Origin: Octopus vulgaris
Lineage: Eukaryota
Reading direction: 5' to 3'
Assembly: GCA_951406725.2 (NCBI GenBank)
Contig: OX597828.1
Location: 5,518,001 to 5,582,000 of the forward strand
Length of the DNA: 64,000 bases
Shown: piece by piece, positions 40,315-40,907 of the stretch
How positions within the stretch are numbered: position 1 is the stretch's first letter
How the letters are laid out: every line of letters starts with the position of its first letter
Program-made: the position numbers

Positions 40315-40907
40315 GTTTGTATGAGTTAGATGTTAAGCAACCATCTAAGGGATAATAAATATCCAATATAATACTGGATGTATACCTGCGTATTTATATC
40401 AAAGTGCTTACTATTGTATGGCAATATCCCGATTGAATACTAGGTATGGGTGGGTGTAAAACAGAAATTTACCCAGGATTTATAAGGCAAATAAGAAAAT
40501 GGATAAGATAATCAATCGACAAGCATCAGCCTGTAAGCATTCATTTATATCTATTTATTAATTGATTACAAACATATGTATAAGTAATTAGAATAAGCAA
40601 ATGAAATAAACGAACGTATTTCATTCGTTTATTGTATCACTTATACATATGATTGTAATCAATTAATAAATAGATATAATTGAATGTTTATTGGCTGATA
40701 TTAATTCGTCCGGGTGTGGGATATATTCATTGAGTTCGCTTTCCAGCTAATTAGAATGTCGTTGATGCTATGACCAGAGTCTACGTATAATCAATGAAGT
40801 GAGAGTTTCATTCTCGAATATAGGCACATAATAGAATATTTGCTAATTTAGTTTACGGCAAAACTTAGAAGTTGTCTATTTTTCTTTTCTACAATTACAC
40901 ATTATTG

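What the first reader, a model, noticed from the sequence alone, without database searches (positions are those of the whole stretch)
40700..40904. Local DNA capture 1: 205 bp from 36945-37149 recopied directly after a fold-back element
Seen: 40700-40904 is essentially identical to 36945-37149, 3.75 kb upstream and in the same orientation. It starts exactly where the palindrome 40525-40699 ends and is followed within a few bases by a (TA)n tract. The donor shows no repeat hallmarks. Inference: during insertion the polymerase jumped from the element to nearby chromosomal DNA, or to a local transcript, before resolving in (TA)n.
Basis: partly seen in the sequence, partly recalled or inferred. 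Interest (0 to 1): 0.72.

Follow-up and report, generated by a model that had tools for sequence, protein, structure and literature searches.

The report
Exact local duplication beside a fold-back
A 205-base stretch is present twice, letter for letter, 3.75 kb apart beside a hairpin-forming element, and the junctions suggest one recent copy-and-paste repair event, probably running opposite to the direction first proposed.

Summary
36945-37149 and 40700-40904 are 205/205 identical on the same strand, with no extension at either end. The second copy starts at the first base after the 175-nt palindrome 40525-40699. It ends 6 nt before a (TA)28 tract. These are the only two copies in the 64-kb window.

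The new fact concerns the palindrome's left terminal 10-mer (40525-40534). It occurs once more in the window, at 37151-37160, one base after the end of the upstream copy (chance about 5e-5). So the upstream locus reads 205 + A + first 10 nt of the fold-back. The downstream locus reads fold-back + 205. The two are circular permutations of one unit.

The arms of the palindrome are only 85% alike, so it is older than the duplication.

The block 40525-40904 is the source. A 216-nt permuted copy, with the hairpin skipped, was laid into SSR-rich DNA at 36945-37160. The route was either a small circle or two template jumps.

The rivals are a long target duplication later split by an insertion, a transposon footprint, a dispersed element, and an assembly error. 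None of them is excluded.

Genome-wide copy number and read support could not be tested. This is a known kind of event and of modest interest.

The parts
36680..36944 (.). P: degenerate SSR-rich DNA ((TG)n, (TA)n, (GATA)n) ending ...GCGGC. It is the left flank of the upstream copy.
36945..37149 (+). Upstream 205-nt copy ('a'). Non-coding, 33% GC. It begins ATTAA and ends ATTA.
37150..37150 (+). Single A between the upstream copy and the 10-mer. It has no counterpart at the downstream locus.
37151..37160 (+). Exact copy of the fold-back's left terminal 10 nt ('b'). It is the only other occurrence in the window.
37161..40524 (.). Q: 3364 nt of mixed DNA between the two 10-mers. It holds a SINE-like repeat at 37314-37714, (TA)83 at 38387-38552, an inverted-repeat element at 39174-39640, a GA-rich stretch, (TA)28 at 40260-40314 and repeat fragment X' at 40316-40519. 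Its two ends share no inverted repeat, and none of the 3 ORFs tested has a Pfam match.
40316..40519 (+). X' fragment, about 64% identical to 52372-52571 beside another fold-back. The homology stops 5 nt before the palindrome and does not resume to its right.
40525..40699 (.). Fold-back element (palindrome). 175 nt, 22% GC, arms 85% alike, termini ATCAGCC...GGCTGAT. No second copy in the window.
40700..40904 (+). Downstream 205-nt copy ('a''), starting at the first base after the hairpin.
40905..40967 (.). TTGCCC followed by (TA)28.5.

Best explanation

The native arrangement was P | Q - fold-back - 205 - TTGCCC - (TA)n. A break in the SSR-rich DNA between P and Q (today 36944 | 37161) was filled with a 216-nt piece. 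That piece was copied from the fold-back locus 3.4-3.75 kb downstream on the same strand.

The piece has three parts: the 205 nt lying between the hairpin and the (TA)n tract, one extra A, and the first 10 nt of the fold-back. The order 205 then fold-back start is a circular permutation of the source order, fold-back then 205.

The template was therefore one of two things. It may have been a small circle of about 381 nt (fold-back + 205, closed with one added A). Or the growing strand may have made two jumps: it copied from the hairpin's right foot up to just before the (TA)n, then landed at the hairpin's left foot and stalled 10 nt into the stem.

The source stayed in place, so this was copy, not cut.

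Shown: the identity, the boundaries, the 10-mer and the age difference between palindrome and duplicate. Inferred: the direction, the break site, the circle or jumps, and hairpin stalling.
For: (1) The copies are 205/205 identical with sharp ends.

(2) The fold-back's left 10-mer sits 1 nt after the upstream copy and nowhere else in the 64 kb. The 7-mer ATCAGCC and its complement occur only at the two fold-back ends and there. The chance of a terminal 10-mer lying within 3 nt of either boundary is about 4.5e-5.

(3) The fold-back arms are 85% alike, so the element predates the 100%-identical duplicate. The short 10-nt piece is therefore a copy of it, not the other way round.

(4) In this reading every letter of the new block except one A has a template within 3.8 kb, in direct orientation. 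No outside sequence is needed.

(5) Both copied segments begin or end exactly at the foot of a very stable hairpin. The 205 stops 6 nt before (TA)28. The 10 nt match the outer 7-bp helix, one mismatch and 2 nt of the next helix.

(6) The junctions have 0-1 nt of overlap plus one added base, as in end joining.

(7) All 3 local direct duplications of at least 200 nt and at least 97% identity in the window have one boundary 2-7 nt from a (TA)n tract. That is roughly 1% by chance. Two further pairs of at least 95% identity were left out because they are SSR or SINE tail (21353/26575 and 46101/59532).

(8) Copy-paste insertions are described in yeast. They are often taken from fragile, structure-forming loci, and 5-7% are built of two or more fragments, including two from one locus (PMC11724301, passages read).
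Against: No empty allele, read data or outgroup was available, so the direction rests on parsimony alone.

The junctions show no microhomology of 2 nt or more. That does not fit classical microhomology-primed switching (MMBIR).

The templated insertions catalogued by the MMBSearch tool are short and lie within 100 bp (PMC8421209, passages). This one is 216 nt from 3.4 kb away.

A circle was not observed.

The fold-back is not a clean insertion at its present site. It has no target duplication with its present flanks, and the X' homology ends 5 nt before it and does not resume. The 'native' status of Q - fold-back - 205 is therefore itself assumed.

In the geometry 205 + A, fold-back, 205, the fold-back would be flanked by a perfect ATTAA repeat. 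That favours the rival in which both copies once flanked one element.
Confidence: 0.4

Rival explanations
1. Both 205s once flanked a single fold-back: 205 - A - fold-back - 205. This would be a long target-site or flanking duplication made when the element inserted, by staggered breaks filled in or by a P-element-type hybrid-element insertion (recalled). The 3364-nt Q then entered the extreme left end of the fold-back with a 10-bp target duplication, giving the two 10-mers.
For: Each repeat pair becomes an ordinary flanking duplication. In that geometry the fold-back is bracketed by a perfect 5-nt ATTAA repeat: the 205 begins ATTAA, and 205 + A ends ATTAA. X' is cut off at the Q / fold-back junction, as expected if that junction is an insertion boundary.
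Against: Q is ordinary mixed DNA with nested repeats and SSRs. It has no terminal inverted repeats, no A-tail, and no Pfam match in 0 of 3 ORFs tested. It does not look like a mobile element. The 10-bp duplication would have to start exactly at the fold-back's first base. Two recent events and two outside sequences are needed.
Confidence: 0.15
2. A fold-back copy once sat at 37151, to the right of the upstream 205. It was cut out together with the 205 by an aberrant cut, closed into a circle, reopened at its true left end, and pasted 3.4 kb downstream. The gap was re-copied from the sister chromatid until the hairpin stopped synthesis after 10 nt. That left 205 + A + 10 nt as an excision footprint.
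For: The 10-mer lies between two TTAA motifs (caTTAA | 10-mer | tTTAAaa), like a footprint between target-site copies. Local hops and footprints that retain end sequence are known for cut-and-paste elements (recalled). Transposon ends plus re-copied flanks joined by end joining are documented in maize composite insertions (PMC4270019, passages).
Against: It needs four new junctions, a cryptic cut exactly at 36944 | 36945, a circle and a one-ended integration. There is no target duplication at 40525 / 40904. No transposase or second family member is in the window. TTAA is common in 66% A+T DNA.
Confidence: 0.12
3. Fold-back + 205 is one unit of a dispersed or rolling-circle element that inserts head to tail. 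The upstream block would be a truncated dimer junction and the downstream block a full copy.
For: A head-to-tail junction (205 end, then fold-back start) is what tandem rolling-circle insertions give (recalled). The fold-back core reads TC...CTGA between A and T.
Against: The TC/CTGA reading is forced by the palindrome itself. The 380-nt unit does not end in CTRR. No diverged copy of the 205 or the palindrome is found in 64 kb even at word size 7, whereas the SINE-like repeat has 5 copies. The truncation would have to fall exactly at the hairpin foot.
Confidence: 0.1
4. Assembly or polishing artefact in a region of palindromes and long (TA)n tracts.
For: Identity is 100% with razor-sharp ends next to sequences that are hard to sequence. 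No read data could be examined.
Against: An artefact would have to invent a 216-nt permuted block with an added base. The palindrome arms are 85% alike, not the near-100% of library fold-back artefacts.
Confidence: 0.1
5. While the fold-back was inserting at 40525, the polymerase jumped to naive chromosomal DNA, or to a transcript, at 36945-37149 and resolved in (TA)n.
For: The copy abuts the element end and lies near (TA)n.
Against: It leaves the 10-mer at 37151 to chance (about 4.5e-5). There is no A-tail or target duplication for an RNA route. The 10-mer as a priming site would give 205 to the left of the fold-back, not to the right.
Confidence: 0.03

Closest known systems
Templated (copy-paste) insertions at DNA breaks, simple and complex (yeast DSB assays; MMBIR/FoSTeS; polymerase-theta end joining)
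   Same: The source is retained. The template is local. The insertion can be built of more than one segment from one locus. Sources are often fragile, structure-forming DNA (PMC11724301, passages).
   Different: This one is 216 nt from 3.4-3.75 kb away, with 0-1 nt of junction overlap. The catalogued MMBIR-type events are short, within 100 bp, inverted and flanked by microhomology (PMC8421209, passages). The circular permutation around a hairpin is not a described signature in the passages I read.
Small extrachromosomal circles (microDNA) and their reintegration
   Same: The inferred unit is about 381 nt, within the quoted 100-400 bp range. A permuted junction is the hallmark of a circle. Reintegration of circles is described (PMC9527254, passages).
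   Different: There is no microhomology at the inferred circle ends. Only part of the circle (216 of 381 nt) is present. No circle was observed.
Transposon-driven flanking duplications: maize Ac/Ds alternative transposition and composite insertions; P-element hybrid-element insertion (the latter recalled only)
   Same: A transposon terminus is joined to a re-copied stretch of its own flank, placed nearby and sealed by end joining (PMC4270019, passages).
   Different: The maize cases involve two elements, kilobase-scale segments and 8-bp target duplications. Here there is one 175-nt fold-back, no target duplication at its present flanks, and no transposase in view.
Palindromic AT-rich repeats and long (TA)n as cruciform-forming fragile sites
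   Same: A 78% A+T palindrome and (TA)28 bound the copied segment. Such sequences break and rearrange (review PMC7999016, seen only as a search listing and the start of the abstract; the rest is recalled).
   Different: Classical cases break at the palindrome centre and give translocations or deletions. Here the breakpoints are at the hairpin feet and the outcome is a small duplication.

Membership tests
Fold-back / MITE-type DNA transposon (the palindrome 40525-40699) | Terminal inverted repeats / hairpin-forming body | tested here: met
   Arms 85% alike. Folds at -54.5 kcal/mol, z -16.6.
Fold-back / MITE-type DNA transposon (the palindrome 40525-40699) | Target-site duplication at its flanks | tested here: inconclusive
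   The present flanks...CAAGC and ATTAA..., share nothing. A perfect ATTAA repeat appears only in the reconstructed order 205 + A, fold-back, 205.
Fold-back / MITE-type DNA transposon (the palindrome 40525-40699) | Multiple copies in the genome | not testable with these tools
   No second copy in the 64-kb window. No eukaryotic genome collection was on hand.
Helitron-type capture | 5' TC, 3' CTRR, small hairpin near the 3' end, insertion between A and T | tested here: not met
   The fold-back core reads TC...CTGA between A and T, but that follows from its own symmetry. The fold-back + 205 unit ends ...CATTA, not CTRR.
Retro-copy of a local transcript (target-primed reverse transcription) | A-rich tail and target-site duplication around the copy | tested here: not met
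   Neither copy has an A-tail or flanking direct repeat.
Microhomology-mediated template switching (MMBIR/FoSTeS) | Microhomology of 2 nt or more at each switch | tested here: not met
   Junction overlaps are 0, 0 (+1 added A) and at most 1 nt.
Copy-paste templated insertion sealed by end joining | Source retained; inserted letters all templated nearby; blunt or near-blunt junctions | tested here: met
   Both copies are present. 215 of 216 letters of 36945-37160 have a template at 40525-40904.
Non-allelic homologous recombination / plain tandem duplication | Homologous repeats at the breakpoints; contiguous duplicated unit | tested here: not met
   There is no homology flanking the copies apart from the 10-mer. 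The copies are 3550 nt apart and only 205 nt is doubled.
Reintegrated small circle (microDNA-like) | Circularly permuted junction | tested here: met
   The 205 end + A + fold-back start at 37149-37151 is the permutation of fold-back end + 205 start at 40699-40700.
Reintegrated small circle (microDNA-like) | The circle itself, or short direct repeats at its genomic ends | not testable with these tools
   No circle data. No repeat between 40525... and ...40905 by eye.
Rfam RNA families (hairpin as an RNA gene) | Score at or above the family's gathering threshold | tested here: not met
   0 of 30 listed matches in 36000-43000 reach gathering. The best on the palindrome is MIR859 at 33.9 bits against 130.

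The most novel reading that the evidence does not exclude
The fold-back element is copied or moved through a small circular intermediate that carries its 205-nt flank. The circle junction would be preserved at 37149-37151. That would be a circle-mediated way for a hairpin element to transduce and scatter neighbouring DNA in an animal genome. It would be one source of the short local duplicates that sit next to (TA)n tracts in this window.
Probability: 0.12. Interest if true: 0.65.

Novelty: new member of a known kind. Interest (0 to 1): 0.35.

Why it matters
This is a clean, very young example of how hairpin-forming and (TA)n-rich DNA seeds small local duplications in an SSR-laden animal genome. 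All six junctions are intact, so the order of events can be read. Suppose the permuted junction proves to come from a circle, or the pattern recurs genome-wide. It would then tie fold-back elements and (TA)n fragility to a specific copy-paste route for making new dispersed sequence. As a single case it changes no general picture.

Tried and rejected
- **Other copies in the window.** I searched for further copies of the 205, the palindrome and their flanks (self-BLAST at word 11, then word 7 without masking). There are none for the 205 or the palindrome. Only the left block 40316-40524 has a weak relative, at 52372-52553 (64%, E 3e-11).
- **Is the downstream 205 native to that repeat family?** Local alignment to the rest of the 52-kb element scored 16. 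The null from 600 random windows had mean 14.6, and 30% of them reached the observed score. An earlier score of 31 was driven by (TA)n. No support.
- **Other fold-backs with the same signature.** I tested the other 10 fold-back or inverted-repeat elements of the window (11 with this one). For 0 of 10 is a flank duplicated elsewhere at high identity. Their terminal-word matches elsewhere are A+T-rich and look like chance.
- **Other junction words.** An 8-mer shared between 37179-37186 and the right arm is at the level expected from the number of comparisons.
- **Coding or RNA function.** The 205 has stops in all six frames. Pfam matched 1 of 10 ORFs, a DDE_3 remnant far away at 7772-8242. Rfam gave nothing at gathering. 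ARAGORN found 0 tRNA genes.
- **Helitron and LINE readings.** Considered and rejected on end sequences.
- **Not attempted.** I did not identify the organism and made no large protein-database search, because the answer would not change the reading. Genome-wide copy number therefore stayed unchecked.

Full report
**The observation.** The window is 64 kb of 66% A+T DNA with no N. Bases 36945-37149 and 40700-40904 are identical at 205 of 205 positions on the same strand, 3755 nt apart. The bases just outside differ on both sides.

The palindrome 40525-40699 is real. It is 175 nt long with arms 85.4% alike. It folds as single-stranded DNA at -54.5 kcal/mol, z -16.6, and 0 of 200 shuffles fold as well. 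Its first and last bases pair, so the downstream copy begins at the first base after the hairpin foot. After the copy come TTGCCC and (TA)28.5.

The window holds 68 tracts of (TA)>=8. Even so, a random position lies within 7 nt of one only about 5.7% of the time.

The fold-back's left terminal 10-mer (40525-40534) occurs exactly once more in the window, at 37151-37160. That is one base after the end of the upstream copy. The 7-mer ATCAGCC and its complement occur only at the two fold-back ends and at that place. By base composition, the chance that either terminal 10-mer, on either strand, falls within 3 nt of either boundary of the upstream copy is about 4.5e-5.

The layout on the + strand is:
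- P: SSR-rich, ending GCGGC
- 205
- A
- the 10-mer
- Q: 3364 nt
- the fold-back, which starts with the same 10-mer
- 205
- TTGCCC
- (TA)n

The upstream locus therefore reads 205 end - A - fold-back start. The downstream locus reads fold-back end - 205 start. The two are circular permutations of one unit.

**Surroundings.**
- Neither the 205 nor the palindrome has any further relative in the window, even at word size 7 without masking. A SINE-like repeat, by contrast, has five copies.
- The 205 is non-coding, with stops in all six frames.
- Nothing in 36000-43000 reaches an Rfam gathering score: 0 of 30 listed matches.
- 0 of 3 ORFs inside Q match Pfam. Of 10 ORFs tested in all, only a DDE_3 transposase remnant at 7772-8242 matches.
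- ARAGORN finds no tRNA gene.
- Q is ordinary mixed DNA. It holds a SINE-like repeat, a (TA)83 tract, an inverted-repeat element at 39174-39640, a GA-rich stretch, a (TA)28 tract and a 204-nt fragment, X'. Its two ends share no inverted repeat.
- X' is 64% identical to 52372-52553, next to another fold-back. That homology stops 5 nt before the palindrome and does not resume to the right of it or of the 205. The fold-back is therefore not a clean insertion at its present site.

**Age logic.** The fold-back arms differ at about 15% of positions, while the two 205s differ at none. The fold-back therefore existed as a unit before the duplication. The isolated 10-mer at 37151 must be a copy or remnant of a fold-back, not its source. 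It stops sharply: 10 of 10 positions match, and nothing matches after that. This looks like a breakpoint, not decay.

**Candidate histories.** I enumerated the histories that give the pattern 205 - 10-mer - Q - fold-back - 205.

(i) P | Q - fold-back - 205 is native, and 205 + A + 10-mer (216 nt) was inserted between P and Q. This needs one event and three new junctions. Every letter but one A has a template within 3.8 kb, in direct orientation. The segment ends fall at the two feet of the hairpin and 6 nt before (TA)n. The 10 nt match the outer 7-bp helix, a mismatch and 2 nt more. The order 205 then fold-back start requires one of two things: a small circle (fold-back + 205 closed with an added A, about 381 nt), or two jumps of the growing strand.

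(ii) Both 205s once flanked one fold-back, and Q later entered the fold-back's first 10 nt with a 10-bp duplication. In favour, the fold-back would then be bracketed by a perfect ATTAA repeat. Against, Q does not look mobile and two outside sequences are needed.

(iii) A twin fold-back once sat at 37151. It left a 10-nt footprint between two TTAA motifs and took the 205 along through a circle. This needs four new junctions and a cryptic cut.

(iv) Fold-back + 205 is a dispersed or rolling-circle unit.

(v) Assembly error.

It leaves the 10-mer to chance, and if the 10-mer served as a primer site the 205 would end up on the wrong side of the fold-back.

I rank (i) first at 0.4. The others follow at 0.15, 0.12, 0.10, 0.10 and 0.03. 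The ranking is inference by parsimony. No empty allele could be examined.

**Junction chemistry.** Overlaps at the three new junctions of (i) are 0 nt, 0 nt plus one added A, and at most 1 nt. That fits end joining of a copied piece better than microhomology-primed switching.

**Context in the window.** Three local direct duplications are at least 200 nt long and at least 97% identical: this one, 41504-41775 with 42002-42273, and 3554-3828 with 5138-5414. All three have one boundary 2-7 nt from a (TA)n tract. That is about 1% by chance. I left out two pairs of at least 95% identity that are SSR or SINE tail. Four of the seven self-palindromes abut a (TA) run on one side. None of the other 10 fold-back or inverted-repeat elements shows a duplicated flank of this kind. 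The permuted signature is therefore single here.

**Comparison with the literature.**
- Copy-paste insertions at breaks are described in yeast. The source is retained, the source loci are often fragile, and 5-7% are built of two or more fragments, including two from one locus (PMC11724301, passages).
- The MMBIR-type insertions catalogued by the MMBSearch tool are short, inverted and within 100 bp (PMC8421209, passages). This case is larger and more distant.
- Small circles of 100-400 bp and the reintegration of circles are reviewed in PMC9527254 (passages).
- Transposon ends joined to re-copied flanks are documented in maize (PMC4270019, passages).
- P-element hybrid-element insertion and AT-rich palindrome fragility are cited from recall. 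The palindrome review PMC7999016 was seen only in a search listing.
- I ran no search for this exact signature in print beyond. I make no claim that it is undescribed.

**Verdict.** This is a real, very recent, two-copy local duplication tied to the exact ends of a fold-back element and to a (TA)n tract. It is most likely a permuted copy-paste repair product whose source is the downstream locus. It is a new member of a known kind and of modest interest.

Noticed in passing
41504-41775 and 42002-42273; inverted arms 41314-41469 and 42495-42650: A 272-nt direct duplicate (98.5% identical, 498 nt apart) lies inside a pair of 156-nt inverted arms (95% complementary). The first copy starts 2 nt after a (TA)n run. 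The second is followed by a 20-nt tandem repeat and (TA)37.
   Followed up: partly
3554-3828 and 5138-5414: A 275-nt direct duplicate (97.5% identical, 1584 nt apart). The first copy ends 4 nt before (TA)45.
   Followed up: partly
20798-21204, 23910-24408, 27490-27762, 54784-54992 (also the inverted-repeat element 1244-1673): Fold-back elements of unrelated sequence each abut a long (TA) run on one side only. The other end carries a short TA-rich terminus. This suggests that (TA)n tracts grow out of element termini, or that the elements land in them.
   Followed up: partly
40316-40519 and 52372-52571; 52532-52629 with 52995-53093: An old repeat family (about 64% alike) sits beside a fold-back at both places. 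At 52.5 kb it runs into a 98-nt inverted-repeat element that ends in (TA)10. At 40.5 kb it is cut off 5 nt before the palindrome.
   Followed up: partly
37314-37714, 59166-59572, 45837-46218, 17470-17853, 1797-2121: A SINE-like dispersed repeat with five copies, 73-89% alike, each carrying an internal or terminal (TA)n tract.
   Followed up: no
7772-8242 (-): Open frame of 156 aa matching Pfam DDE_3 (E 2.8e-15). It is a Tc1/mariner-type transposase remnant.
   Followed up: partly
39174-39245 and 39567-39640: 72-nt inverted repeats (82% complementary) bound a 467-nt MITE-like element inside Q.
   Followed up: no
whole window: There are 68 tracts of (TA)>=8, covering 2802 nt, about one per 940 nt. 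(TG)n, (GA)n and (GATA)n are also plentiful. The genome is very rich in SSRs.
   Followed up: partly
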